Origin: Acidimicrobiales bacterium
Lineage (GTDB): Bacteria > Actinomycetota > Acidimicrobiia > Acidimicrobiales > VFJN01
NCBI GenBank assembly: GCA_046598715.1
Contig: JBKJIE010000093.1
Span: 16,964-80,963 of the forward strand
Direction: 5' to 3'
Length of the DNA: 64,000 bases
Every line of letters starts with the position of its first letter. Within the stretch, counting starts at the first letter, position 1. Under the pieces are notes generated by a model, which had not been told where the DNA came from, did no database searches, and was given only the letters and a program-made list of their open reading frames with translations. Positions 7,589 through 19,447 of this stretch are shown here, in pieces. Position numbers and translations under genes: made by a program.

Positions 7589-8773
7589 TTGAGGCATGCT
7601 CGCGGCATGACGATGCTCGCGGCTGCAACCCGCCCGGGTCTGACACCGGAGGCCCTGGCCGCCGCGGCGCGCTCGGCCGCCGGTGCCGGCTCGCTTGCCT
7701 TCCGCATCCGGCCCACCGGGGCTGCCGTGACCTACCGAATCGACCACTCCACGGTGACGGTGGTCGATGGCGTCGACGACGCGGCCACGGTGGTGGAGCT
7801 CGATGAGGATGCGTGGTCGGATCTCACCGGCCAGCGGCGCACGTTCATCAACCTCTTCCTCGCTGGCGCGCTCACCTTCGAGGGCGGCGGGTTCGAGCAG
7901 CTGGCCACGTGGGATCCCGCGCTCCGTCTCCTGCATGACGGGATCCCGATCTACGACCCGGAGCAGGTCGACCTCGACGGGCGCGATCCGGCTGCGGTGC
8001 TCACTCTCGACACTCCGGACGAGGAGCTGCGCGCACAGCTGCAGACGATGGGCTACCTCCACCTGAGAGGCGTCTTCACTGCGGAGGAGATGGCAACCGC
8101 CAACGCCGAGGTCGATCGCCTCGCGGAGCTCGCCCGCCCCGGTGACGATCAGTCGTGGTGGGCCGAGGGCGAAGACGGCGAACAGGTCGTGTGCCGCCTG
8201 GTGTATGCCACTCTCCGATCTGAGCGCCTGGCCACCCTCGAGGGTGATCCCCGCGTCGCCCGCCTCGGCCTCCTGCTCGATCCCACCCTCCGCATCGCGG
8301 CCGACCGGATGGAGGGTTCACCGGTGCTGCTCAAGGCGCCGGGCGAGACCAAGGGCCTGTCGAACATCCCGTGGCATCAGGACTGCGGCATGGGCGGTCA
8401 CGGGATCGTGTGTCCCTCGGTGAGCATCGGCATCCAGCTCACGGGCTCGTCCGCGGCGAGCGGCAACCTCAAGGTGATCCCCGGCAGCCATGGTCGCACG
8501 CTGCACTACCAGTGGGAGCGCCACCTGCACGACGTCCCCATCGTCACGATCGACACCGCCCCCGGTGACGTCACCGTGCACATACAGGACGTGATGCACG
8601 CGTCGCCGAAGCCCACTGGCGCGGGCGGTCGCCGGACGATGTACGTCACGTTCTACCCGGTGAAGCTGTGGGACCACGTCGGTCCGGGCGAGGCGTTCAA
8701 CGACCTGGTCCGCAATCGCACTGCCGAGGTCGCCAACCTCCGTGGCAACCGACACCCCGGGCGAGCGGGCTGA
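7589..8773 (+). CDS. Phytanoyl-CoA dioxygenase (PhyH) family Fe(II)/2OG oxygenase with an extra N-terminal domain
   Basis: The C-terminal two-thirds matches PhyH-type sequence (IPWHQDCG...GNLKVIPGSH). The N-terminal ~150 aa looks SCP2-like, which is inference. The start is uncertain (7589, 7607 or 7613). Confidence 0.75.
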   Translation: MRHARGMTMLAAATRPGLTPEALAAAARSAAGAGSLAFRIRPTGAAVTYRIDHSTVTVVDGVDDAATVVELDEDAWSDLTGQRRTFINLFLAGALTFEGGGFEQLATWDPALRLLHDGIPIYDPEQVDLDGRDPAAVLTLDTPDEELRAQLQTMGYLHLRGVFTAEEMATANAEVDRLAELARPGDDQSWWAEGEDGEQVVCRLVYATLRSERLATLEGDPRVARLGLLLDPTLRIAADRMEGSPVLLKAPGETKGLSNIPWHQDCGMGGHGIVCPSVSIGIQLTGSSAASGNLKVIPGSHGRTLHYQWERHLHDVPIVTIDTAPGDVTVHIQDVMHASPKPTGAGGRRTMYVTFYPVKLWDHVGPGEAFNDLVRNRTAEVANLRGNRHPGRAG

Positions 8774-9647: not shown

Positions 9648-10289
9648 TCAGGCCGGCAGCTCCATCAGGGCCGACACGGCGGACTCGACCTGCTCGGCCG
9701 GCGGGTCTGACGACAGACCCACCCAGAAGTTCGCCCACTGCTCGTCGACGGCGAACTTGGCGCCAAAGTCGCCGTAGTGGAGGAAGTCCTCGAAGCCGAC
9801 CAGCGTCGTGAAGGTGCCTTCGCCGCGACCGATCGTCTGCACGCTGCGCACCCGTCCGCCGAGGCGCTCGAGGTGACCACGCGCCGTCGCCTGGGAGGCG
9901 AGGTGATCGACGAGACGACCCGGACGGGTCTTGAACGCCACCGCGATCAGCACCCGCGAGTACTCCGTGGGAAGGCCTTCGGTGGCGTCAAGGTCGTTCA
10001 TCAGGTAGTTCTCGACGTTGGTACCCGAGGGATCGGCCATGGCGCCTGCCCAGAAGGCCTGCCACTCAGTGCTCGTACCGACGGCCTGCATCGTCTTGCC
10101 ATAGGCGACCTGGTCTTCATACGCGACGACGAAGTTGATGGTGCCGGCCTCGCCGCCCGCGATGGGCTGCCACATCGTGACGATCCCTCCGTTGGCCTCG
10201 AGGATCGTCTTGGCCTGGGTCATCGACACGATGAGGTCACCAGCCCGCCCTGCGAGTGGACGCCACGTGTGCACTGAGAACACTGCCAT
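9648..10289 (-). CDS. Hypothetical protein, two-repeat alpha/beta-barrel-like
   Basis: Only the last 213 aa of ORF 9648..11036 look coding (MAVFSVHTWRPLAG...). ATG at 10289-10287. The upstream 249 aa are shadow sequence antisense to the MprF-like gene. Confidence 0.55.
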   Translation of the reverse strand: MAVFSVHTWRPLAGRAGDLIVSMTQAKTILEANGGIVTMWQPIAGGEAGTINFVVAYEDQVAYGKTMQAVGTSTEWQAFWAGAMADPSGTNVENYLMNDLDATEGLPTEYSRVLIAVAFKTRPGRLVDHLASQATARGHLERLGGRVRSVQTIGRGEGTFTTLVGFEDFLHYGDFGAKFAVDEQWANFWVGLSSDPPAEQVESAVSALMELPA

Positions 10290-10385
10290 TTCGCTTGCTC
10301 CGATCCGGGGCCGGCTTGACCCGCGTTGTTCCGACGAGTCGGTTGTCGCGCCGTGACGTCGGCCCAGCAATGACACCAACGGGCC

Positions 10386-13300
10386 ATGAACGTCAACGGT
10401 CCGCGAGGGTCCACGCCCCCGCTCCGAGCCAGAACGGTGCGGGCAGTACGGTTCGTCGGTGGCAACTCGGCTCGACCTACACCTGGCGGTCCGAGGTTGA
10501 ACCCGGCGCAACCGGAGGATGCCGCAGGTGGCGCCATCGCCGACCGCGTCGAGGTGCGCCTGCCGCGAGGTGCGACGGTCGTGATCTGCAGCGATCTCCA
10601 CCTCAGCGAGCGCGCGACAGAGGCGTCGCGGATCGTCACCGGCGAGCTCTGTGAGCGCCTCCGGCAGCTGACCGGTCCGGGTGCGGTGGTGCTCAACGGT
10701 GACTGCTTCGAGCTGCTCCTCGCCCTCCAGCCGTCGGTCGCGGCTGTGCTGGACGCCCACCCGGACTTCGCGGCGGTGCTCGCGGAGGTCGGGCACTCGG
10801 AGGGTCGCGAGGTCGTCGTCACCGTCGGCAACCACGACGGCCGGCTCGCGTGGGACGCGGCCGAGGCCGACGTGCTCCGGGCGCGGATCGGAGCGGTCGT
10901 CGCGCTGAGCGTGGACCTGCTCCTCGACACCGCCCGCGGCGTGCGGGTCGTCCGGGTGGAGCACGGGCACCAGTTCGATCCTGCCAACGCGCTTCGCGAT
11001 GCCCGAGATCCCCTCGACACGCCGCTCGGACAGCACATGGTGCAGGAGGTGGTGCCGGAGCTCACGGCGCGCCCGTTCCTCGCCGATGCGCAGTGGCTGT
11101 CCGATCCGGATCAGCTTCCTCGCTTCGTCGGCTCACGCGTGGTGTACCGAGAGCTGCTCGGCCGAGCGACCTGGCTGCTGGTGCCACTCATGCTCCTGCT
11201 GCTCGCCCTGCGGACGCCGATCATCGCGGCCGCGATGTCGGTGACCCCAGGGAGGCAGGAGCTGGCGGGGTTCTTGCTGGTCGGCGTCGTCGGGGTGGTC
11301 GTCGACGTCGCGGCCGTGGCGGTGCTGATCGTGGTCATCGCCCGGCGAGTGTTCCGGTCGCTCACGACCGCCCGCCTCGGCGCACGTGGCACCCATCTGA
11401 ACGAGCCTCCGCGTGCTGCTGGGGAGGCCCTGTGCGGCCAGGGGTTCGCCGGGTTCGTCACCGGTCACACCCATCACCCCGAGCTCACCCCACTGCGCGA
11501 GGGCTTCTACGCGAACAGCGGGTGTGGCGTGCAAGCGGTGGAGGCCCGTCGAACGCGCGGTGGGATGCCGCCGGTCTTCGTGGGCGTGCACCGCCGCTCG
11601 TGGCTGGAGCTCGACGCCGGTCGCGACGTCGAGACCCGCCTCATCGTGGCCGAGACGCCGGTGCCGGGCGCCACCAGGCTGGAGCGCCTCGCCAGTCGGA
11701 AGCACCCGGCTCGTCCGGCCGTGCCCACCGTCGTGGGCTCGTGCCCCGGCGGCGCCGGATGGCCGATCGATCACGCCGCCCTCGGTGACGCCTCACAGAA
11801 CCGACGCAGCCGGCGCGCCGCCGCCGGATTCGTGCTCCTCGCCGCGATGGTCGGGGTGTACTCGGCCGTCACGCCGCCGTCCCGCAGTCGCCTGCGGGCG
11901 CTGCTCGGGGTCATGCCTGTCGAGCTGCCCCAGGCGGCGTCGGCGACCCTGGTGTTCGCATCGATCTCGCTGCTCCTGCTCGCCCGGGGGTTGCGTCGCG
12001 GGAACCGCCTCGCGTGGCTGGCGACCTTGGGCGTGCTGACCGCGTCCGCCGTGCTCCACCTGCTCAAGGGAGGTGACGTCGAAGAAGCCGCGCTCGCCGT
12101 GGGCATCGTGATCTGGCTGACGGCGCGCTCGTCGGCGTTCCAGGTCCGCCCTGACACGGCGTCGGTCCGGCGGGCCGCCGTTCTCTCTCTCGCGGGGGCG
12201 GCGATCGCGGTGACGCTGTCCGAAGCGCTCGTGCTCGCGGTGGGCACCCACCGGCCGACGAACGCGTCGATCGGCGCGCTCGTGGAACGGCTGGCCGGGA
12301 ACGCCACCGTCCCCCTGCCCGGTGACACGCCCTTCGTCACGCCGGCCTTGGCGGCGACCGGTGTGGGTCTTGCCCTCGCCGTCGTGCTCATCCTCTTGGC
12401 CCCGCGCCGCCCGCCCAAGCCCTCGGCTCGTCAGCACCTCGCCGACCGCGCCCGGGCCCGGCGGATCGTCGAACGCCATGGTGGCGACACGCTCGCCTAC
12501 TTCGCGCTGAGGGACGACAAGCAGTGGTTCTTCACGGGCGGGTCCGTGGTGGCCTACGGGGTGCGCAACGGCGTCTGCCTCGTGTCGCCCGACCCCATCG
12601 GTCCGGTCGACGAGTGGGCCGCCACGTGGTCGGAGTTCGCGGCCTTCGCCGATCGACACGGTTGGGCCGTAGCGGTGCTGGCGGCCGGTCCGGGCTGGCT
12701 GCCCGTCTACGAGGCGGCCGGGATGCAGACCATCTACATGGGCGACGAGGCCATCGTCGACTGCCAGGCCTTCACGCTCGAGGGCGGCACCATGAAGGGT
12801 CTGCGCGGCTCGCACAACCGAGTGAGGAAGGCCGGGTACACGACAATCTTCCTTCGCTCTGGCGAGGTCGAACCCGAGCTCGAGCGAGCGCTGCGCGACA
12901 TGATGGCCGACACGCGGCACGGCGAGACCGAGCGGGGGTTCTCCATGACCCTCTCCCGGATCTTCGACCCTGAGGATCACGATCTCCTCCTGTCGATCGC
13001 GCTCGATCCGAACGGCCGGCCGACGGCGTTCTGCCAGTGGGTCCCGGCCGCAGAGATCGCCGGCTGGTCGCTCGACCTGACCCGTCGATCGAGGGCCGAG
13101 CAGCCCAACGGCGTCTCCGACTTCCTCATCGTCGAGATGATCCTGCACCTCAAGGCCACCCACCAGGTGGGCCTTGGGCTCAACTTCGCTGTGATGCGGG
13201 AGATCGTGGCCGGCGAGCGCGAGGGCGGGTTCTCCAACCTCGAGCGGAGGATCCTGCAGAAGTTCAGCGAGACGATGCAGATCGAGTCGCTCTGGCGCTA

Positions 13301-13451
13301 CAACGAGAAGTTCCGTCCGTACTGGCGGCCCCGCTACGTGGTGCTCGACGCGGTGGAGCACAGTGCCGCTGGAACCATCGCCATCGCAGGCGCCGAGTCG
13401 ATCTCCGAGCTGCCGTTGTTGGGTCGCTTCTTCAGCCAGCCGCGCCACTGA
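10386..13451 (+). CDS. Fusion protein: membrane-anchored calcineurin-like metallophosphoesterase + MprF-type C-terminal TM segments + aminoacyl-phosphatidylglycerol synthase domain (DUF2156/LPG_synthase_C)
   Basis: Metallophosphoesterase motifs: CSDLH, NGDCFE, VGNHD, EHGH, and after two inserted TM helices, VTGHTHHPE. aa ~478-675 carry MprF-like TM helices (LLLLARGLRRGNRLAWL...LLKGGDVEEAAL). aa ~690-1021 carry the DUF2156 signature (HGGDTLAYFALRDDKQWFF...GLRGSHNRVRKAGY). Confidence 0.8.
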   Translation: MNVNGPRGSTPPLRARTVRAVRFVGGNSARPTPGGPRLNPAQPEDAAGGAIADRVEVRLPRGATVVICSDLHLSERATEASRIVTGELCERLRQLTGPGAVVLNGDCFELLLALQPSVAAVLDAHPDFAAVLAEVGHSEGREVVVTVGNHDGRLAWDAAEADVLRARIGAVVALSVDLLLDTARGVRVVRVEHGHQFDPANALRDARDPLDTPLGQHMVQEVVPELTARPFLADAQWLSDPDQLPRFVGSRVVYRELLGRATWLLVPLMLLLLALRTPIIAAAMSVTPGRQELAGFLLVGVVGVVVDVAAVAVLIVVIARRVFRSLTTARLGARGTHLNEPPRAAGEALCGQGFAGFVTGHTHHPELTPLREGFYANSGCGVQAVEARRTRGGMPPVFVGVHRRSWLELDAGRDVETRLIVAETPVPGATRLERLASRKHPARPAVPTVVGSCPGGAGWPIDHAALGDASQNRRSRRAAAGFVLLAAMVGVYSAVTPPSRSRLRALLGVMPVELPQAASATLVFASISLLLLARGLRRGNRLAWLATLGVLTASAVLHLLKGGDVEEAALAVGIVIWLTARSSAFQVRPDTASVRRAAVLSLAGAAIAVTLSEALVLAVGTHRPTNASIGALVERLAGNATVPLPGDTPFVTPALAATGVGLALAVVLILLAPRRPPKPSARQHLADRARARRIVERHGGDTLAYFALRDDKQWFFTGGSVVAYGVRNGVCLVSPDPIGPVDEWAATWSEFAAFADRHGWAVAVLAAGPGWLPVYEAAGMQTIYMGDEAIVDCQAFTLEGGTMKGLRGSHNRVRKAGYTTIFLRSGEVEPELERALRDMMADTRHGETERGFSMTLSRIFDPEDHDLLLSIALDPNGRPTAFCQWVPAAEIAGWSLDLTRRSRAEQPNGVSDFLIVEMILHLKATHQVGLGLNFAVMREIVAGEREGGFSNLERRILQKFSETMQIESLWRYNEKFRPYWRPRYVVLDAVEHSAAGTIAIAGAESISELPLLGRFFSQPRH

Positions 13452-13501: not shown

Positions 13502-15073
13502 TCAGCCGCCGCCGGCTGCCTCGAGGTCGAGCTCGATGGCCCGCAGCTCCTCGGGGGTGCCCTGGATCTTCGGGCCCGTGAACCACTTGCGGGCCGACAG
13601 TGTCCAGTAGCCGTACACGTAGAGCATGAGCAGGCCGAGAGCCACTGGGGCGTAGTTGAAGCTGGCGTAGGTGATCGGGCTGAACTGCGGCAGCAGGAAG
13701 TAGATGCTGATGAAGCCGACCCACACCACCGCGATCCACCCGATGACGTAGCTCCAGCGGCCGAGGTGCCAGGGCCCCCGCTGGAAGCTCTCACCCTGCC
13801 GCAACCGGAGGAACACCGGGAGGATGTAGGCGATGTAGAGCCCGATGACGCCGATCGACACGATGGCGAAGAAGGTGGCCGGGAACCCGCCCGCCTCCCG
13901 AAGCGATGGCACGCCGGCGAGGAAGGCCAGGAAGGCGCAGATCCAGATCGAGTTCGTTGGCGTCCGCGTGCGGGGGTTGATGCGGTGCCAGCGCTTGTGA
14001 CCGGGCACGGCGCCATCCCTGGAGAAGGCGTAGAGCATCCGGGAGTTGGCCGTGAGCGAGGCGTTGCCGCAGAAGAACTGGGCGACGCAGGCGATGCCCA
14101 CCAGGATCTTCGTGCCGTCGGCTCCGATGGCGTTGAGGATGATCGGGATGGGGGCGGTGATGAGGCTGCCGGCCGCGGTGACCGTGTCGAAGCCCGGCTC
14201 GATGGCGAAGGCCACGGCGAGCAGCAAGATGTACCCGGCGATGCCAGAGAGCCACACCGAGGTGACCATCCCCTTGGGACCGGCAACCGCCGCGTTCTCG
14301 GTCTCCTCAGTCATGTGGGCCGAGGCGTCGAAGCCGGTGATCGTGTACTGCGCGAGCAGCAGCCCGATGAAGAACACGTACACGCCCGAGCCCCGTCCAG
14401 CCCACCCGGTGTTGTTCTGGAAGTGGCTGAACACATAGCTGGCCGAGGCGTGTCGATCGGGGAGCACCACCAGAAAGGCGAGGAACACGGCCACGCCGAT
14501 CAGGTGCCACCACACGCTGATGTCGTTGAGCAGAGCCGTGATCCGGATCCCCAACGTGTTGAGGATGCCGTGGAGGACGAGCAGCACGCCGTAGATGAAC
14601 AGCAGCGAGCGGGGCGTCGGCACGAAGTCGGTCGTGAGGGTGAGGAAGCCGCCCACGAAGTTGGCCAGCGCGAAGTCGATGCTCGCCGTGATGGCTACCT
14701 GGCCGATGAGGTTGAACCAGCCGGTGGTCCAGCTCCACAACGGGGCGTTGCGCTTGGCCAGCTTCGCCGACCAGTAGTAGAGGCCGCCGGCGGTGGGGTA
14801 GCTGGAGCAGACCTCGCCCATCGACATGGCCACCGTGAGCGACATGACCGTGACGATGGGCCAGCCGTAGACGATTGCCGGGCCCCCACCTGCGTAGAGC
14901 ACCAGGTAGAAGGTGGTCAGGCAGCCGGCCAGGATCGAGATGATCGAGAACGAGACCGCCATGTTCGAGAAGCCCTGCATCTTGCGGCCGAGCTCTTGGG
15001 CGTAGCCCAGCTCGTGGAGCCGCTCGGTGTCGGACTTGTGGGTCGCAGGCGACCCAGGCATGTCGACGGACAT
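13502..15073 (-). CDS. APC-superfamily amino acid/amine permease
   Basis: 523 aa with ~12 predicted hydrophobic segments. N-terminal region typical of amino acid/choline/GABA-type permeases (LGRKMQGFSNMAVSFSIISILAG...EVCSSYPTAGGLYYW). Confidence 0.85.
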   Translation of the reverse strand: MSVDMPGSPATHKSDTERLHELGYAQELGRKMQGFSNMAVSFSIISILAGCLTTFYLVLYAGGGPAIVYGWPIVTVMSLTVAMSMGEVCSSYPTAGGLYYWSAKLAKRNAPLWSWTTGWFNLIGQVAITASIDFALANFVGGFLTLTTDFVPTPRSLLFIYGVLLVLHGILNTLGIRITALLNDISVWWHLIGVAVFLAFLVVLPDRHASASYVFSHFQNNTGWAGRGSGVYVFFIGLLLAQYTITGFDASAHMTEETENAAVAGPKGMVTSVWLSGIAGYILLLAVAFAIEPGFDTVTAAGSLITAPIPIILNAIGADGTKILVGIACVAQFFCGNASLTANSRMLYAFSRDGAVPGHKRWHRINPRTRTPTNSIWICAFLAFLAGVPSLREAGGFPATFFAIVSIGVIGLYIAYILPVFLRLRQGESFQRGPWHLGRWSYVIGWIAVVWVGFISIYFLLPQFSPITYASFNYAPVALGLLMLYVYGYWTLSARKWFTGPKIQGTPEELRAIELDLEAAGGG

Positions 15074-15193
15074 AGCGTCCTCCTCCCGCCCATCCCCCCG
15101 GGGTGAGCGCTCAAGATGTGACTAACAGTTACCCATCGAGCCCGCTGCGGAGGTGGATGGTGGTTCGCGCCCTCGCGCCCGGCGGTGGTGTGA

Positions 15194-16570
15194 TTGACTG
15201 CCGCGGTGCCCACCCCGCTGACCGTGGAGGAGCTCCGGTCCCTCGTGGAGGGCGGCGACGTCGACACGGTGCTCGTCGCCTTCACCGACATGCAGGGCCG
15301 CCTGCAGGGCAAGCGCTGCCATGCGCAGTACTTCCTCGACGAGGTGCTGGCCCACGCCACCGAGGCGTGCAACTACCTGCTCGCGGTCGACGTGGAGATG
15401 AACACCGTGGCGGGCTACGCCATGTCGTCGTGGGACACCGGGTATGGCGACTTCGTGCTGCGCCCCGACCTCTCCACGCTGCGCCTCGTGCCCTGGCAGC
15501 CAGGAACCGCGCTCGTGCTCTGCGATGTGGAGTGGGACGACGGCTCGCCTGTGGTGGCTTCGCCGCGCCAGATCCTGCGTCGGCAGGTCGAGCGCCTCGC
15601 CGAGCGAGGGTTGGTGGCCTTCGCCGGGACCGAGCTGGAGTTCATCGTCTTCCAGGACACGTATGAGGCGGCGTGGACGGCCGGGTACCACGGGCTCACC
15701 CCGGGGAACCAGTACAACGTCGACTACTCCCTGCTGGGCACGGCGCGCGTCGAGCCGCTGCTCCGCCGCATCCGCAACGACATGACGGGTGCCGGGTTGG
15801 TGGTCGAGTCGGCGAAGGGCGAGTGCAACCCGGGGCAGCACGAGATCGCCTTCCTCTACGACGAGGCGCTCGTCACCGCCGATCGGCACTCCATCTACAA
15901 GACGGGGGCCAAGGAGATCGCCGCGCAGGAGGGCATGAGCCTCACCTTCATGTCCAAGTACAACGAGCGCGAGGGCAACTCCTGTCACATCCACCTGAGC
16001 GTGCGCTCCACCGACGGTGTGCCAGCGATGGCCGGTGACGGCGCCGGTGACGCGTCCGGGTTCTCGCCGCTGATGGAGCGCTGGCTCGCCGGCCAGCTGG
16101 CCTGCCTGGAGGAGCTCACGCTGCTCTTTGCCCCCAACGTCAACTCGTACAAGCGATTCGCCGAGGGCAGCTTCGCTCCCACCGCGATCGCGTGGGGGCG
16201 GGACAACCGCACGTGCGCGATGCGGGTGGTCGGCCATGGCCCCGCGCTCCGAGTCGAGAACCGAGTGCCGGGCGGCGACGTCAACCCCTACCTCGCACTG
16301 GCCGGTGTGATCGCGGCGGGCCTCCATGGCATCGATGAGGGCCTCGTACTCGAGCCACCGCTGGCGGGCAACGCCTACGTGTCGGACCGGCCACGAGTGC
16401 CCTCCACGCTGCGGGATGCCGCCGATCGCTTCACGGCCTCGGAGGTGGCACGGGCGGCGTTCGGCGACGACGTGGTGGAGCACTACACCCACGCGGCCCG
16501 GGTCGAGCAGGCGGCCTTCGACTCAGCGGTCACCGATTGGGAGCGCGTCCGCGGGTTCGAGCGGCTGTGA
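15194..16570 (+). CDS. Glutamine synthetase-family gamma-glutamyl-amine ligase (GlnA3/GlnA4/PuuA-like)
   Basis: 458-aa GS-fold sequence (VAFTDMQGRLQGKR, ELEFIVF, NSCHIHLS, NSYKRF, NRTCAMRV...ENRVPGGDVNPYL). The start is TTG 15194 or GTG 15206. Confidence 0.85.
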   Translation: MTAAVPTPLTVEELRSLVEGGDVDTVLVAFTDMQGRLQGKRCHAQYFLDEVLAHATEACNYLLAVDVEMNTVAGYAMSSWDTGYGDFVLRPDLSTLRLVPWQPGTALVLCDVEWDDGSPVVASPRQILRRQVERLAERGLVAFAGTELEFIVFQDTYEAAWTAGYHGLTPGNQYNVDYSLLGTARVEPLLRRIRNDMTGAGLVVESAKGECNPGQHEIAFLYDEALVTADRHSIYKTGAKEIAAQEGMSLTFMSKYNEREGNSCHIHLSVRSTDGVPAMAGDGAGDASGFSPLMERWLAGQLACLEELTLLFAPNVNSYKRFAEGSFAPTAIAWGRDNRTCAMRVVGHGPALRVENRVPGGDVNPYLALAGVIAAGLHGIDEGLVLEPPLAGNAYVSDRPRVPSTLRDAADRFTASEVARAAFGDDVVEHYTHAARVEQAAFDSAVTDWERVRGFERL

Positions 16571-17307
16571 GCTGGACGGGGGCTGCTTCGGCGCCACCTC
16601 GCATCGGGTTGACCACCTACCTCGAGCGGGCCCGGTTCGGCGTGTGGGACGAGCAGGCGGCCTTGCTGCCAGCCAGCTACGTGGAGGTCGTGGCCGCGGC
16701 CGGGGGGCTGCCCGTGCTGCTGCCCCCGATCGTGCCCGCCGATCTCGCGGCAGCCGCCGCGGCGGCCGTCGAGGGCATCAACGGGCTCGTGCTCACCGGC
16801 GGGGCCGACGTCGGCCCCGAGCACTATGGAGCTGAGCCCCATGCCGAGACGGACCGGCCCCGCGCGGAGCGCGATCACTGGGAGCTGGCCTTGCTCCGGG
16901 CGGCGCTCGATGCGGATCTCCCCGTGCTCGCCGTGTGCCGCGGTGCGCAGCTGCTCAACGTGGCGCGTGGCGGGTCGTTGCACCAGCACCTCCCCGACCT
17001 GGTCGGCGGACCCACCCACCGACCTGCGCTCGGCACCTTCGCGCACCTGTCGGTGCAGGCCACGCCCGGAAGTCGGCTGGCCCACATCGTCGGCGAGTCC
17101 GCCGAGGTGCACTGCCATCACCATCAGGCCATCGATCGGCTGGGGGACGGTCTCACGGTGTGCGCCCGTGCCGACGACGGCACCGTCGAGGGCGTCGAGC
17201 TGGCCAGCGCCCGCTTCGCGCTCGGCGTGCAGTGGCACCCCGAGGAGGCGGGCGATCAGCGGCTGTTCCGAGCGCTTGTCGACGCCGCGACGGCGAGCCG
17301 ACCGTGA
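16567..17307 (+). CDS. Gamma-glutamyl-amide hydrolase (peptidase C26 / class-I glutamine amidotransferase, PuuD-like)
   Basis: Motifs VLAVCRGAQLLNV, HHQAI and GVQWHPE. The GTG 16567 start forms a GTGA overlap with the upstream stop. Confidence 0.85.
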   Translation: MSWTGAASAPPRIGLTTYLERARFGVWDEQAALLPASYVEVVAAAGGLPVLLPPIVPADLAAAAAAAVEGINGLVLTGGADVGPEHYGAEPHAETDRPRAERDHWELALLRAALDADLPVLAVCRGAQLLNVARGGSLHQHLPDLVGGPTHRPALGTFAHLSVQATPGSRLAHIVGESAEVHCHHHQAIDRLGDGLTVCARADDGTVEGVELASARFALGVQWHPEEAGDQRLFRALVDAATASRP

Positions 17308-18662
17308 CCAGTCACGACGTCGTCAACCCGGCCACCGAGGAGGTGGTGTGCAGCGTTCCCGGCACCTCCGCGGAAGCAGTCGACTCGGCCATCGTTCGCG
17401 CCCGCGCCGCGTTCCCCGCCTGGGCCGAGGTGGCTCCGGGCGATCGCGCCCGCCTCCTGCGCCGCTTCGCCGCTGCGATCGACGCAAACCTCGAGCACCT
17501 CGCCGACCTCGAGGTGGCCAACGCCGGTCACACGATCAGCAACGCCCGCTGGGAGGCGGGCAACGCCCGCGATGTCGTCGAGTACTACGCCGCGTCGCCG
17601 GAACGCCTCTTCGGCCGACAGATCCCGGTGGCCGGCGGCCTCGACGTGACCTTTCGCGAGCCCCTCGGCGTGGTGGGCGTCATCGTGCCCTGGAACTTTC
17701 CGATGCCCATCGCGGCGTGGGGGTTCGCTCCCGCCCTGGCCGCTGGGAACACCGTGGTGCTCAAGCCGGCAGAGCTGACCCCGCTCACGGCCGTCCGCCT
17801 CGGCGAGCTGGCCCGCGAGGCCGGCATCCCTGAGGACGTCTTCCAGGTGCTCCCTGGTAAGGGCTCGATCGTGGGACAGCGGCTCGTCCACCATCCCGAC
17901 GTCCGCAAGATCACCTTCACCGGATCCACCGAGGTCGGACGGTCGATCATGGTGGGCGCCGCGGCCACCATGAAGCGCATCACCCTCGAGCTCGGTGGCA
18001 AGAGCGCCAACATTGTGTTCGCCGACTCGGATCTCGAGCAGGCCGCCGCCACCGCCCCCTACGCGGTGTTCGACAACGCGGGCCAGGACTGCTGCGCCCG
18101 CTCGCGCATCCTCGTCGAGCGCACCGTGCACGATCGGTTCCTCGAGCTCCTCGAGCCGGCGGTCAAGGGCGTGCGGGTGGGCGATCCCCGCTCCGACGAC
18201 ACGGAGATGGGGCCGCTCATCTCGGCGGCGCATCGCGACGTCGTGGCCTCCTACGTACCAGAGGGCGCGCCGGTGGCCTTCCGCGGCGAAGCACCGACCG
18301 GGCCTGGGTTCTGGTTCCCGGCCACCGTGCTGGCGCCGGTGGCGGCGCACGACCGCGCCTTCACGGAGGAGATCTTCGGCCCGGTGGTCACCGTCGTGCC
18401 CTTCGACGACGAGGCCGACGCCATCCGGATCGCCAACGACAGCCCCTACGGCCTGTCGGGGTCGATCTGGACGCAGAACGTCGGCCGGGCCCTGCGGGTG
18501 GCCCGGGCCGTCGAGGCCGGCAACCTGTCGGTCAACTCCCACTCGTCGGTTCGGTACTGGACCCCCTTCGGCGGGTTCAAGCAGTCGGGTCTCGGTCGAG
18601 AGCTCGGCCCCGACGCGCTCGACGCCTTCACCGACGTCAAGAACGTCTTCATCGCAACCTGA
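17304..18662 (+). CDS. NAD(P)-dependent aldehyde dehydrogenase
   Basis: ALDH motifs VPWNFP, FTGSTEVG, ELGGKSANIV and the catalytic-Cys region GQDCCARSR. The GTG 17304 start forms a GTGA overlap with the upstream stop. Confidence 0.9.
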   Translation: MTSHDVVNPATEEVVCSVPGTSAEAVDSAIVRARAAFPAWAEVAPGDRARLLRRFAAAIDANLEHLADLEVANAGHTISNARWEAGNARDVVEYYAASPERLFGRQIPVAGGLDVTFREPLGVVGVIVPWNFPMPIAAWGFAPALAAGNTVVLKPAELTPLTAVRLGELAREAGIPEDVFQVLPGKGSIVGQRLVHHPDVRKITFTGSTEVGRSIMVGAAATMKRITLELGGKSANIVFADSDLEQAAATAPYAVFDNAGQDCCARSRILVERTVHDRFLELLEPAVKGVRVGDPRSDDTEMGPLISAAHRDVVASYVPEGAPVAFRGEAPTGPGFWFPATVLAPVAAHDRAFTEEIFGPVVTVVPFDDEADAIRIANDSPYGLSGSIWTQNVGRALRVARAVEAGNLSVNSHSSVRYWTPFGGFKQSGLGRELGPDALDAFTDVKNVFIAT

Positions 18663-18673
18663 TCGGAGCACCG

Positions 18674-19447
18674 GTGGATCTCACGCAACGCTTGTCCGGG
18701 AGGGTCGCCGTCATCACCGGCGGCGCGGGCGGCATCGGCCTGGCCACCGCCCGCCGCCTCGCTGCGGAGGGGGCCACGGTGGTGATCGCTGATCTCGACG
18801 ACGCCAGCGGCGCGGCCGCCGCGGAGGCCGTGGGTGGGCTGTTCATCGCCACCGATGTCACCGACGACGCGCAGGTGGAGGCGCTCTTCGCCCGCACCCG
18901 CGACACCTACGGCGCGGTCGACGTGGCCTTCAACAATGCGGGGATCTCGCCGCCCGACGACGATTCGATCCTCACCACGGGGCTCGACGCGTGGCGTCGC
19001 GTGCAGGACGTGAACCTCACCTCGGTGTACCTGTGCTGCAGGCACGCGCTGCCCCACATGCAGCGGCAGGGTCGGGGATCCATCATCAACACGGCGTCGT
19101 TCGTGGCCGTGATGGGGTCGGCCACCTCGCAGATCTCCTACACGGCGTCCAAGGGGGGTGTGCTGGCCATGAGCCGCGAGCTGGCCGTGCAGTTCGCGCG
19201 CGAGGGCATCCGGGTCAACGCGCTGTGCCCCGGCCCGGTGAACACGCCGCTGCTCCAGGAGCTCTTCGCCAAGGACCCGGCCCGCGCCGCGCGACGCCTG
19301 GTGCACATCCCGATGGGCCGCTTCGCCGAGGCCGACGAGATCGCGGCTGCGGTGGCCTTCCTCGCCAGCGACGACGCCTCCTTCGTGACCGGCTCCACCT
19401 TCCTCGTCGACGGCGGCATCTCCGGGGCCTACGTCACGCCAGAGTGA
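18674..19447 (+). CDS. SDR family oxidoreductase (3-oxoacyl-ACP reductase-like)
   Basis: TGGAGGIG, NNAG, and the S...YTASK catalytic motif. It lies 12 nt downstream of the ALDH gene. Confidence 0.85.
   Translation: MDLTQRLSGRVAVITGGAGGIGLATARRLAAEGATVVIADLDDASGAAAAEAVGGLFIATDVTDDAQVEALFARTRDTYGAVDVAFNNAGISPPDDDSILTTGLDAWRRVQDVNLTSVYLCCRHALPHMQRQGRGSIINTASFVAVMGSATSQISYTASKGGVLAMSRELAVQFAREGIRVNALCPGPVNTPLLQELFAKDPARAARRLVHIPMGRFAEADEIAAAVAFLASDDASFVTGSTFLVDGGISGAYVTPE

What the first reader, a model, noticed from the sequence alone, without database searches (positions are those of the whole stretch)
10386..13451. 1021-aa fusion of a TM-interrupted metallophosphoesterase with an MprF-type aminoacyl-phosphatidylglycerol synthase module
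Seen in sequence:
- aa ~62-380 carry all calcineurin-like phosphoesterase motifs (DLH, GDxxE, GNHD, GH, GHTH). Two hydrophobic helices are inserted before the GHTH motif.
- aa ~478-675 look like the last TM helices of MprF.
- aa ~690-1021 are the DUF2156/LPG-synthase domain.

Established knowledge:
- MprF normally couples this synthase to an N-terminal flippase domain.
- Mycobacterial LysX couples it to a lysyl-tRNA synthetase.

Inference:
- Replacing the flippase with a membrane-anchored phosphoesterase suggests a different lipid-remodelling logic. One possibility is coupling aminoacylation of PG to hydrolysis of a phosphodiester or pyrophosphate lipid head group.
- The aminoacyl/lipid specificity cannot be read from the sequence.
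Basis: partly seen in the sequence, partly recalled or inferred. Interest (0 to 1): 0.7.

Follow-up and report, generated by a model that had tools for sequence, protein, structure and literature searches.

The report
LpxH-like phosphoesterase fused to aminoacyl-lipid synthase
This is a real, widely conserved actinobacterial membrane protein that joins a membrane-anchored metal-dependent phosphoesterase to a tRNA-dependent enzyme that adds amino acids to membrane lipids, a combination found in databases but in no paper I could search, so what the phosphoesterase half does is an open and testable question.

Summary
ORF 10386..13451 (+) is one continuous gene; the likely start is TTG 10497, giving 984 aa. 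It has three modules:
- a metallophosphoesterase (MPE) with all nine metal/catalytic residues intact, split by a helical insertion that contains a two-helix membrane hairpin;
- six TM helices of the LysX/MprF synthase-proximal type;
- a DUF2156/LPG_synthase_C domain (E=1.9e-66).

It is not an assembly artefact. More than 44 full-length homologues (35-98% identity) exist, including in Micromonospora and Dactylosporangium isolates.

The MPE's closest solved structure is LpxH with lipid X, and the insertion sits where LpxH has its lipid-binding domain. It fails the LpxH family models. The module also exists as a stand-alone family of about 430 aa, and its only fusion partner is this synthase.

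"Replacing the flippase" is not the best description. The nearest relatives of the synthase half are short six-TM synthases that never had a flippase.

Only 24 of 44 fused members keep all catalytic residues, so catalytic coupling is not universal.

Best hypothesis: a cytoplasm-facing lipid head-group phosphoesterase that unmasks or regulates the acceptor lipid for aminoacylation.

New variant of a known kind; interest moderate.

The parts
10386..13451 (+). Whole ORF, 1021 codons plus stop. The probable true start is TTG 10497, giving 984 aa.
   Evidence: Searches list and translate the ORF. One search shows continuous GC3 of 0.82-0.93. One search shows ATG 10386 is the first start after the stop at 10371-10373, and that TTG 10497 matches the starts of P0001 (984 aa, 98% identity) and P0007. 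In one search, aa 1-47 have pLDDT below 50.
10539..10979 (+). Metallophosphoesterase catalytic core, N-terminal part (aa 52-198). It carries motifs I-IV: D70/H72, D106, N149/H150, H193/H195.
   Evidence: PF00149; motif conservation; residue census; pLDDT 90-97; coordinates.
10980..11441 (+). Helical insertion within the MPE (aa 199-352). It sits at the same topological position as the helical insertion domain of LpxH. It contains conserved DTPLGxHxVQEV and SRxxYR elements and the membrane hairpin.
   Evidence: models helices 214-227, 230-237, 241-285, 290-327 and 340-351. Searches show the conserved residues. (PMC5016852) places the LpxH insertion between residues 118 and 174.
11169..11234 (+). 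Hairpin helix a (aa 262-283), predicted to cross from inside to outside.
   Evidence: hydropathy peak 2.2. One search shows 4 K/R residues before it and a short loop with 1 K/R after it.
11265..11345 (+). Hairpin helix b (aa 294-320), predicted to cross from outside to inside.
   Evidence: hydropathy peak 3.06. One search shows 5 K/R residues in the 25 residues after it.
11442..11750 (+). Metallophosphoesterase catalytic core, C-terminal part (aa 353-455), with motif V G360-H361-T-H363.
   Evidence: One search shows the profile matching the VPS29 GHTH region at E=6e-5. One search gives pLDDT 89-96.
11811..12410 (+). Six-helix TM domain (aa 476-675), homologous to the LysX TM region and to the last six TM helices of MprF.
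   Evidence: LysX model from position 13, MprF model from position 323. (PF16995 in homologues). (helices and charge bias: 28 K/R in predicted inside loops against 7 outside). (aligns to P. aeruginosa MprF from residue 362).
12459..13343 (+). DUF2156 / LPG_synthase_C tRNA-dependent aminoacyl-lipid synthase domain (aa 692-986). It includes D897 (13074-13076), which aligns with D765 of the P. aeruginosa enzyme.
   Evidence: E=1.9e-66. (TM-score 0.74-0.84 normalised to the target, against solved L-PGS, A-PGS and DUF2156 domains). (alignment). (S895, L896, D897, R901 and E849-M854 invariant in 44 fused members).

Best explanation
The gene encodes one integral-membrane, two-enzyme protein.

SHOWN BY COMPUTATION
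1. The C-terminal half (six TM helices plus a tandem-GNAT DUF2156 domain) belongs to the short actinobacterial LysX/MprF-type tRNA-dependent aminoacyl-lipid synthases.
2. The N-terminal ~420 aa are a binuclear metallophosphoesterase. Its closest solved relative is LpxH. Its catalytic core is interrupted, at the position of LpxH's lipid-binding helical insertion, by a larger helical insertion that includes a two-helix membrane hairpin.
3. By the positive-inside rule, both catalytic domains face the cytoplasm and sit on the inner leaflet.

INFERRED
4. The hairpin and insertion hold the metal centre at the membrane surface, so the substrate is the phosphorylated head group of a membrane lipid, not a soluble molecule.
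5. The most economical role next to the synthase is to remove a phosphate and so unmask the hydroxyl that the synthase then aminoacylates. The first choice is phosphatidylglycerol-phosphate to phosphatidylglycerol, and the second is phosphatidate to diacylglycerol. The acceptor would be made and consumed within one protein.
6. In lineages where the metal ligands have decayed, the module probably survives as a lipid-binding or scaffolding domain.

The amino acid and the acceptor lipid cannot be read from the sequence.
For: - Architecture and continuity.
- Conservation of the fusion: 44 full-length homologues at 35-98% identity, including Micromonospora sp. NBC_00617 (complete genome) and Dactylosporangium cerinum. 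Ten of the 80 species-representative genome loci kept are intact fusions, three more are fused genes truncated or frameshifted, and the window is syntenic with an Acidimicrobiales MAG.
- MPE identity: all motifs intact; PF00149 passes on the module alone; Foldseek top hit is E. coli LpxH with lipid X, E=2.3e-5, followed by VPS29 and Rv0805; the best named NCBIfam hits are LpxH models.
- Insertion position: it matches that of the LpxH helical insertion domain, which holds lipid X against the metal centre and contacts the membrane.
- Topology: 28 K/R in predicted cytoplasmic loops against 7 outside, with an even number of helices on each side.
- Synthase: PF09924 E=1.9e-66; TM-score 0.74-0.84 (normalised to the target) against solved synthase domains; aligned to P. 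aeruginosa MprF residues 362-856; the D765 equivalent D897 and neighbouring motifs are invariant.
- Functional link: among the best 150 cluster representatives of the MPE module, 49 are fused to this TM+synthase, 30 are stand-alone, and no other fusion partner appears.
- The full-length model has pTM 0.80, which suggests a defined arrangement of the domains.
Against: - No biochemical data exist for any member.
- Only 24 of 44 fused members retain all nine metal/catalytic residues. The window's closest relatives at 72-79% identity (P0002-P0007) have GSHD or GTHD in place of GNHD, and about eight members are heavily degenerate. Catalysis by the MPE is therefore dispensable in several lineages.
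- About 66 stand-alone MPE genes have no synthase gene within 6 kb, so gene neighbourhood gives no support beyond the fusion itself.
- LpxH-type chemistry cleaves a pyrophosphate, whereas the proposed role is a monoesterase. Resemblance to LpxH is weak: 14% identity, TM-score 0.55, 14 bits against a cut-off of 134.
- The window locus lacks the partners seen with related synthases elsewhere, namely the DMT-like membrane protein and the PF00756 esterase.
- I could not inspect model coordinates or the predicted aligned error, so whether the two active sites face each other is unknown.
Confidence: 0.45

Rival explanations
1. The MPE module is mainly non-catalytic in the fusion. It acts as a membrane-embedded lipid-binding, dimerisation or regulatory domain, like the inert MPE-fold scaffold VPS29, that presents or gates acceptor lipid for the synthase.
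For: - 20 of 44 fused members have lost at least one of the nine metal/catalytic residues, on several separate branches, while the synthase motifs remain invariant.
- Non-catalytic elements of the insertion (S250, R251, Y254, N339, the hairpin) stay conserved even in degenerate members such as P0043.
- VPS29 is among the top sequence-profile and fold hits.
Against: - The window protein keeps 9 of 9 residues, as do 23 other fused members.
- Stand-alone relatives keep them invariantly (44/44, except one position at 42/44), which shows the ancestral module is an enzyme.
- A single N149S/T change need not abolish metal binding.
Confidence: 0.25
2. The MPE is active, but on a substrate that is not the acceptor precursor. 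One version is a nucleotide-linked lipid, for example CDP-diacylglycerol cleaved to PA plus CMP in an LpxH-like pyrophosphatase reaction that tunes phospholipid flux. Another is a soluble or RNA substrate, such as cyclic nucleotides, Ap4A or 2',3'-cyclic-phosphate tRNA ends, linked to the tRNA side of the reaction.
For: - LpxH, the closest structure and the closest named HMM, is a nucleotide-diphosphate-lipid pyrophosphatase.
- Rv0805, a cAMP phosphodiesterase, is also among the fold hits.
- From my own knowledge, some MPEs repair RNA 2',3'-cyclic phosphate ends.
Against: - A permanent membrane hairpin in the substrate-recognition insertion argues for a membrane substrate rather than a soluble one.
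- CDP-DAG hydrolysis gives PA, which is not a known acceptor, so the exclusive fusion to the synthase would lack a rationale.
Confidence: 0.2
3. Two separate genes, an MPE and a short synthase, have been joined by an assembly or frameshift error in this window.
For: Stand-alone versions of both halves exist. Broken copies of the fusion occur in some MAGs (L090, L053).
Against: - The coding signal is continuous in one frame.
- More than 44 independent full-length homologues come from different assemblies, including a complete isolate genome.
- The linker and junction residues are conserved.
- L090 is a fused gene damaged by a deletion and frameshift, not a true split.
Confidence: 0.01

Closest known systems
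LysX (Mycobacterium tuberculosis Rv1640c; NCBIfam NF002821)
   Same: It is actinobacterial. The TM region is of the same type (PF16995 in homologues) and is followed by the DUF2156 synthase. The LysX model aligns from position 13 to 570 over aa 470-1008 with the best score of any named family, 286 bits. It is likewise a synthase core with one extra enzyme fused on.
   Different: There is no C-terminal lysyl-tRNA synthetase. The extra enzyme is N-terminal and is a phosphoesterase. The score is far below the equivalog cut-off of 742.
MprF (S. aureus, P. aeruginosa, Rhizobium; NF033480; PDB 7DUW, 9J8S, 9GOE)
   Same: The last six TM helices and the cytoplasmic synthase are homologous: 26% identity over about 540 columns to P. 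aeruginosa MprF, with the catalytic-site Asp conserved.
   Different: The N-terminal flippase block (model positions 1-322) is absent. The score is 222.8 bits against a cut-off of 600. An MPE module sits at the N-terminus instead.
Short actinobacterial aaPGS homologues (545-630 aa; Kineococcus, Aquihabitans, Cellulomonas, Brevibacterium and others)
   Same: They are the nearest relatives of the TM+synthase half, at 48-62% identity over 95-99% of it.
   Different: They have no MPE module. They often carry an overlapping downstream DMT-like membrane-protein gene and a PF00756 esterase gene, both absent from the window.
LpxH (UDP-2,3-diacylglucosamine pyrophosphatase; PDB 8QJZ, 5B49)
   Same: It is the closest solved structure to the N-terminal module (Foldseek E=2.3e-5). 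It has the same GDxFE-type motif II. A helical insertion sits between motifs IV and V, which in LpxH binds the lipid and touches the membrane. JGI auto-annotation names the family LpxH.
   Different: Identity is 14%. The LpxH equivalog models score 14 bits against cut-offs of 134-190. The insertion is about three times longer and contains true membrane-spanning helices. Motif III is GNHD, not GNRD. From established knowledge, Actinobacteria make no lipid A.
LpxG (Chlamydia trachomatis CT461)
   Same: It is a membrane-anchored, Mn2+-dependent calcineurin-like phosphoesterase that acts on a lipid pyrophosphate (PMC4807358).
   Different: It is anchored by a single N-terminal TM helix, not an internal hairpin. 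No detectable specific sequence relationship was found here.
AlaDAGS/PesT of Corynebacterium
   Same: It is an actinobacterial aaPGS homologue that works with an accessory hydrolase-type protein and uses a non-PG acceptor, diacylglycerol (PMC6103681).
   Different: The accessory protein is a separate esterase, not a fused phosphoesterase. The relationship to the window protein was not tested.

Membership tests
Calcineurin-like metallophosphoesterase superfamily (PF00149/PF12850) | Five-motif signature: DxH / GDxx[DE] / GNH[DE] / H / GHxH | tested here: met
   D70-x-H72, G105-D106-xx-E109, G148-N149-H150-D151, H193/H195 and G360-H361-T-H363 are all present.
Calcineurin-like metallophosphoesterase superfamily (PF00149/PF12850) | HMM score at or above the Pfam gathering score | tested here: met
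   The score is 23.4 bits against 21.5 when the module is scanned alone, and 20.8 (just below) on the whole protein. All 45 aligned module sequences (the window's included) match PF00149 and 43 of 45 match PF12850.
Calcineurin-like metallophosphoesterase superfamily (PF00149/PF12850) | MPE beta-sandwich fold | tested here: met
   The AlphaFold model has pLDDT 79.8. The top Foldseek PDB hits are all MPEs: LpxH, VPS29, AQ665 and Rv0805.
Calcineurin-like metallophosphoesterase superfamily (PF00149/PF12850) | Metal-dependent phosphoester hydrolysis | not testable with these tools
   This needs an enzyme assay.
LpxH (UDP-2,3-diacylglucosamine diphosphatase) | Equivalog HMM at or above cut-off (NF003743 134 bits; TIGR01854 190 bits) | tested here: not met
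   The window module scores 14 bits. Stand-alone relatives score 23.2 and 19.9 bits.
LpxH (UDP-2,3-diacylglucosamine diphosphatase) | [quoted passage not shown] | tested here: inconclusive
   An all-helical insertion occupies the same topological position. It is about 155 aa rather than about 55, is unrelated in sequence, and contains membrane-spanning helices. Lipid binding was not tested.
LpxH (UDP-2,3-diacylglucosamine diphosphatase) | Host has the Raetz lipid A pathway | not tested
   The hosts are Actinomycetota, which by established knowledge lack lipid A. No lpx genes were searched for.
tRNA-dependent aminoacyl-lipid synthase (DUF2156 / LPG_synthase_C, PF09924) | PF09924 at or above the gathering score over the full domain | tested here: met
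   The score is 224.6 bits against 27.5, with model positions 1-297 of 298 matched.
tRNA-dependent aminoacyl-lipid synthase (DUF2156 / LPG_synthase_C, PF09924) | Tandem-GNAT fold of the solved L-PGS and A-PGS domains | tested here: met
   Foldseek TM-scores normalised to the target are 0.74-0.84 against 4V36, 5VRV and 4V34.
tRNA-dependent aminoacyl-lipid synthase (DUF2156 / LPG_synthase_C, PF09924) | Conserved active-site Asp (D765 of the P. aeruginosa enzyme; its role is recalled from memory of Hebecker et al. 2015) | tested here: met
   SLD(765)LMR aligns with S895-L896-D897-L-T-R-R. D897 is invariant in the 44 fused members. The numbering was derived by counting in the alignment of chain 9GOE.
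tRNA-dependent aminoacyl-lipid synthase (DUF2156 / LPG_synthase_C, PF09924) | Cytoplasmic location of the synthase domain, for access to aminoacyl-tRNA | tested here: met
   This is a prediction only: six TM helices, with 9 K/R in the 27 residues after TM6.
tRNA-dependent aminoacyl-lipid synthase (DUF2156 / LPG_synthase_C, PF09924) | Formation of an aminoacylated lipid | not testable with these tools
   This needs expression and lipid analysis.
MprF, bifunctional flippase/synthase (NF033480) | Equivalog score at or above 600, and an N-terminal flippase TM block | tested here: not met
   The score is 222.8 bits. Only model positions 323-823 are matched, and an MPE module takes the place of positions 1-322.
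LysX, bifunctional synthase / lysyl-tRNA synthetase (NF002821) | Equivalog score at or above 742, and a C-terminal LysRS domain | tested here: not met
   The score is 286 bits. Only model positions 13-570 of 1102 are matched, and there is no aaRS Pfam domain.
LysX, bifunctional synthase / lysyl-tRNA synthetase (NF002821) | LysX-type TM region (PF16995) | tested here: inconclusive
   PF16995 is not reported for the window protein at E<=0.1. It is present in many close homologues, and the LysX model covers the region.

The most novel reading that the evidence does not exclude
The fusion is a two-step 'unmask-then-aminoacylate' machine. The membrane-embedded MPE removes the phosphate from a phosphorylated lipid, either phosphatidylglycerol-phosphate to PG or phosphatidate to diacylglycerol. 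That exposes exactly the hydroxyl that the adjacent synthase then esterifies with an amino acid from aminoacyl-tRNA. If true, it would also assign a lipid-phosphatase function to the orphan stand-alone 'LpxH-like' membrane MPE family of Actinobacteria, which is about 490 clusters at 50% identity counting stand-alone and fused members together. It would also give a first case of acceptor-lipid channelling in lipid aminoacylation.
Probability: 0.2. Interest if true: 0.75.

Novelty: new variant of a known kind. Interest (0 to 1): 0.55.

Why it matters
Known aminoacyl-lipid synthases are fused either to a flippase (MprF) or to an aminoacyl-tRNA synthetase (LysX, fungal ErdS). In those cases the partner exports the product or supplies the amino-acid donor.

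A conserved fusion to a lipid-type phosphoesterase would be a third logic, acting on the acceptor-lipid side.

It also gives the only functional clue to a sizeable orphan family of membrane-anchored, LpxH-like phosphoesterases in bacteria that make no lipid A.

The repeated decay of the phosphoesterase active site within the fusion, set against strict conservation in the stand-alone form, is a natural experiment on whether the domain works as an enzyme or as a scaffold.

Cultured carriers exist (Micromonospora, Dactylosporangium), so the question can be tested directly.

Tried and rejected
- Assembly or frameshift artefact: rejected.
- Gene-neighbourhood link between stand-alone MPE genes and synthase genes: none within 6 kb in about 66 loci. 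Their context is conserved core-genome synteny in closely related MAGs (suf operon, ABC-2 transporter, ctaA; or thiL/thiD, rpmB, fakA) and is uninformative.
- A possible naturally split version (L090): it is a fused gene with a ~45-aa deletion plus a frameshift.
- Other fusion partners of the MPE module: the mid-length proteins are contig-truncated copies of the same fusion, and no other partner was found.
- Conserved partners in the window: the DMT-like membrane protein and the PF00756 esterase seen next to related synthases are absent from all 64 kb.
- Single-sequence search of the PDB with the MPE module found nothing significant. The profile search reached VPS29 and, weakly, LpxH.
- Smith et al. 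2015, which defines seven aaPGS types, could not be read. I cannot say which type, if any, includes this architecture.
- Rfam scan of the whole window: no hits.
- Literature searches combining MprF/aaPGS/LysPG with metallophosphoesterase, calcineurin-like or LpxH: no papers. Papers mentioning DUF2156/PF09924 do not mention the fusion.

Full report
1. THE OBSERVATION

The window has about 70% G+C, so long spurious ORFs are common. ORF 10386..13451 (+) is nonetheless a real single gene.
- Third-position GC is 0.82-0.93 in every 150-codon window along it.
- Pfam finds LPG_synthase_C (PF09924) at aa 692-986 with E=1.9e-66, and Metallophos (PF00149) at aa 64-208 with 20.8 bits, just under the gathering score of 21.5.
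- Scanned alone, the N-terminal module scores 23.4 bits. All 45 aligned module sequences (the window's included) match PF00149, and 43 also match PF12850.
- NCBIfam aligns aa 470-1008 to positions 13-570 of the LysX model (286 bits) and aa 476-988 to positions 323-823 of the MprF model (222.8 bits). Both scores are far below the equivalog cut-offs.
- All five MPE motifs are present, and two strongly hydrophobic helices (aa 262-283, 294-320) lie between motifs IV and V.

The first ~50 residues are unconserved and disordered in the model. TTG 10497 coincides with the starts of the 98%-identical P0001 (984 aa) and of P0007, so the true product is probably 984 aa.

2. NOT AN ARTEFACT, AND NOT RARE

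A search of 5.8 billion proteins returned about 45 full-length homologues with 35-98% identity over about 95% of the query. They come from Dactylosporangium, Micromonospora, Acidimicrobiales and other Actinomycetota.
- The gene sits in the complete genome of Micromonospora sp. NBC_00617 and in D. cerinum.
- In a scan of one genome per species, 223 relatives of the N-terminal module were found. Of the 80 kept, 10 are intact fusions, two are fusions cut by contig ends, and one is frameshifted.
- The best hit (76%) is an Acidimicrobiales MAG whose locus is syntenic with the window: FMO-SDR-enoyl-CoA hydratase-[fusion]-GS-like-peptidase C26-SDR. The window probably comes from a relative of it.
- Neighbours in the window are unrelated metabolic genes. 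No neighbour is conserved across the fused family as a whole.

3. THE N-TERMINAL MODULE IS A SELF-CONTAINED FAMILY

Used alone as a query, aa 55-470 finds many stand-alone proteins of 410-460 aa. They are about 40% identical over about 98% of the module, hairpin included. JGI labels them 'LpxH', and NCBI mostly calls them hypothetical.
- An exhaustive HMMER search of 1.84 billion cluster representatives finds 490 clusters at E<=0.001 and 106 at E<=1e-30.
- Among the best 150 there are 49 with the TM/synthase half, 30 complete stand-alone proteins, 59 fragments and 12 with unresolved tails.
- The mid-length ones checked are contig-truncated copies of the same fusion. No other fusion partner appears.
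- In the stand-alone alignment every metal-binding or catalytic residue is invariant.
- A rough neighbour-joining tree puts 40 of the 44 stand-alone sequences in one clade nested among fused lineages. The fused form is therefore old and diverse. The direction of change (fusion or fission) is not resolved, because the tree is a midpoint-rooted distance tree.

4. WHAT KIND OF PHOSPHOESTERASE

Single-sequence search of the PDB finds nothing. The family profile reaches VPS29 (6e-5) and LpxH (0.021).
- The AlphaFold model of the module (pLDDT 79.8, pTM 0.78) has as its best Foldseek PDB match E. coli LpxH bound to lipid X (E=2.3e-5, TM-score 0.55 normalised to the target). VPS29, AQ665 and Rv0805 follow.
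- The best named NCBIfam hits are LpxH equivalogs, at 14-23 bits against cut-offs of 134-190. It resembles LpxH most but is not an LpxH.
- In P. aeruginosa LpxH the catalytic domain (residues 1-118 and 174-240) is interrupted by a four-helix insertion domain. That domain clamps the acyl chains of lipid X against the dimetal centre, and its outer face is proposed to contact the membrane. The authors stress that such inserted domains set substrate specificity in MPEs (PMC5016852).
- Here an all-helical insertion of about 155 aa (aa 199-352) lies at the same point, between motif IV and the strand that leads into GHTH. Two of its helices (modelled as 241-285 and 290-327) are long and hydrophobic enough to cross the bilayer.
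- Chlamydial LpxG shows that a TM-anchored MPE can act on a lipid pyrophosphate (PMC4807358).

I infer that the substrate is a phosphorylated lipid head group at the membrane surface.

5. TOPOLOGY

Hydropathy gives the hairpin plus six helices at 478-497, 515-535, 541-560, ~567-580, 597-620 and 648-673.
- Loops predicted inside carry 28 K/R, and loops predicted outside carry 7. Nine K/R follow TM6, four precede the hairpin and five follow it.
- With even helix counts, the N-terminal MPE core, its C-terminal part and the synthase are all cytoplasmic.
- This fits the need for aminoacyl-tRNA. It is the usual arrangement for MprF and LysX, unlike LysX2 (PMC8974105).
- It is a prediction, not a measurement.

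6. THE SYNTHASE HALF

The full-length model (pLDDT 81.1, pTM 0.80) matches cryo-EM MprF structures over about 540 columns (P. aeruginosa 9J8S, E=8e-25, 26% identity). It matches isolated L-PGS, A-PGS and DUF2156 domains with TM-scores of 0.74-0.84 normalised to the target.
- phmmer aligns aa 481-989 to P. aeruginosa MprF residues 362-856 (9GOE numbering). By counting in that alignment, D765 corresponds to D897 in the motif S895-L-D897. I recall D765 as the proposed catalytic base in Hebecker et al. 2015, which I could not check.
- That motif, ERGFSM (849-854), R901, N973 and K975 are invariant or nearly so in 44 fused members.
- The nearest relatives of this half that lack an MPE are short proteins of 545-630 aa with six TM helices and the synthase only, at 48-62% identity. 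They come from Kineococcus, Aquihabitans, Cellulomonas, Brevibacterium and others. I confirmed that three of them have no MPE gene upstream.

The core is therefore a short LysX-type synthase that never carried the MprF flippase. The MPE was added to it and did not replace a flippase.

7. A CAUTION ABOUT COUPLING

At the nine key MPE positions, stand-alone proteins are 44/44 intact, with one position at 42/44.
- Among 44 fused proteins only 24 keep all nine. N149 is kept in 29.
- The window's relatives at 72-79% identity (P0002-P0007) have GSHD or GTHD.
- P0014, P0015, P0017, P0018, P0020, P0039, P0043 and P0045 have several disabling changes, on different branches.
- Non-catalytic features of the insertion remain conserved in them.

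The fused MPE therefore has a role that survives loss of catalysis in some lineages. The window protein (9 of 9 intact) and its 98% twin may still be active.

8. MECHANISM I COMMIT TO

Shown: architecture, fold assignments, conservation and predicted topology.

Inferred: the MPE is a cytoplasm-facing lipid head-group phosphoesterase held in the membrane beside the synthase.
- The reaction that best explains an exclusive fusion to an aminoacyl-lipid synthase is dephosphorylation that exposes the acceptor hydroxyl.
- The first candidate is PGP to PG, where the 3'-phosphate occupies the position that is later aminoacylated.
- The second is PA to DAG, given that actinobacterial homologues can aminoacylate DAG (PMC6103681). 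Other MprFs use glycolipids (abstract listed, PMC11630815).
- I put about 0.45 on the general statement and about 0.2 on the specific 'unmask-then-aminoacylate' version.

Rivals are a mainly structural or regulatory MPE (0.25), an MPE active on CDP-DAG or on nucleotide or RNA substrates (0.2), and an artefact (0.01).

9. COMPARISON AND NOVELTY

It works like a LysX/MprF-type synthase joined to an LpxH-like enzyme. It fails the membership tests for MprF (no flippase block, 222.8 bits against 600), LysX (no LysRS, 286 against 742) and LpxH (14 against 134).
- It is a member of the PF09924 and PF00149 superfamilies.
- Databases hold the architecture under generic names: NCBI uses 'phosphatidylglycerol lysyltransferase domain-containing protein', and JGI uses 'DUF2156 family/UDP-2,3-diacylglucosamine pyrophosphatase'.
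- I found no paper that describes it.

I rate it a new variant of a known kind, with moderate interest (0.55).

Noticed in passing
L007:10060-10875, L009:9868-10728, L091:5632-6516, L093:7719-8516: A polytopic membrane-protein gene of 265-294 aa overlaps the stop codon of the synthase gene in two fused loci and two unfused loci (Aquihabitans, Kineococcus). The copies are 44-51% identical to each other. They have no significant Pfam family; the only hits are weak and below threshold: one copy to EamA (E=0.014) and another, over its full length, to the DMT-transporter model NF038012 (E=0.0028). It is a candidate separate flippase or exporter for this flippase-less synthase clade. It is absent from the window.
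   Followed up: partly
L006:9948-11030 (-), L091:6572-7771, L093:589-1701; also ~1.4 kb upstream in L053, L070, L075, L078, L084: PF00756 'putative esterase' genes recur next to both fused and unfused synthase genes. This is reminiscent of the esterase PesT that accompanies AlaDAGS in Corynebacterium. None is in the window.
   Followed up: partly
Alignment A2 (fused homologues P0001-P0047): The MPE metal and catalytic residues have decayed repeatedly within the fusion (20 of 44 members), while stand-alone members and all synthase motifs stay intact. This looks like several independent conversions towards a pseudo-enzyme.
   Followed up: partly
L090:4829-7692 and L053:4392-7533: Two MAG loci carry the fusion broken into two ORFs. 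L090 has a ~45-aa deletion plus a frameshift just after the MPE core. These could be pseudogenes or assembly errors.
   Followed up: partly
P0042 (1695 aa): One homologue has about 740 extra N-terminal residues with no Pfam match ahead of the MPE-TM-synthase unit. This could be an additional domain or a merged gene call.
   Followed up: no
window 9648-10289 (-): A 213-aa gene is transcribed divergently from the target. It consists of two similar halves (...WQAFWAGAMADPSG... and ...WANFWVGLSSDPPAE...), has no Pfam match, and is absent from the syntenic MAG locus L010.
   Followed up: partly
window 13502-19447: This stretch holds an amino-acid permease (-), then a GS-like gamma-glutamyl ligase, a peptidase C26 (PuuD-like), an aldehyde dehydrogenase and an SDR (+). 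Together they look like a gamma-glutamyl polyamine/amine catabolic cluster. Compared with the syntenic MAG locus L010, the window has four extra genes: the permease, the aldehyde dehydrogenase, a PhyH dioxygenase at 7589-8773, and the 213-aa gene.
   Followed up: partly
L027 (JACDEK010000036.1): A stand-alone MPE homologue (36% identity) lies on a contig binned as 'Candidatus Saccharibacteria', far outside the otherwise actinobacterial distribution. This could be mis-binning or horizontal transfer.
   Followed up: no
window 1-64000: No Rfam family reaches its gathering score anywhere in the 64-kb window.
   Followed up: yes
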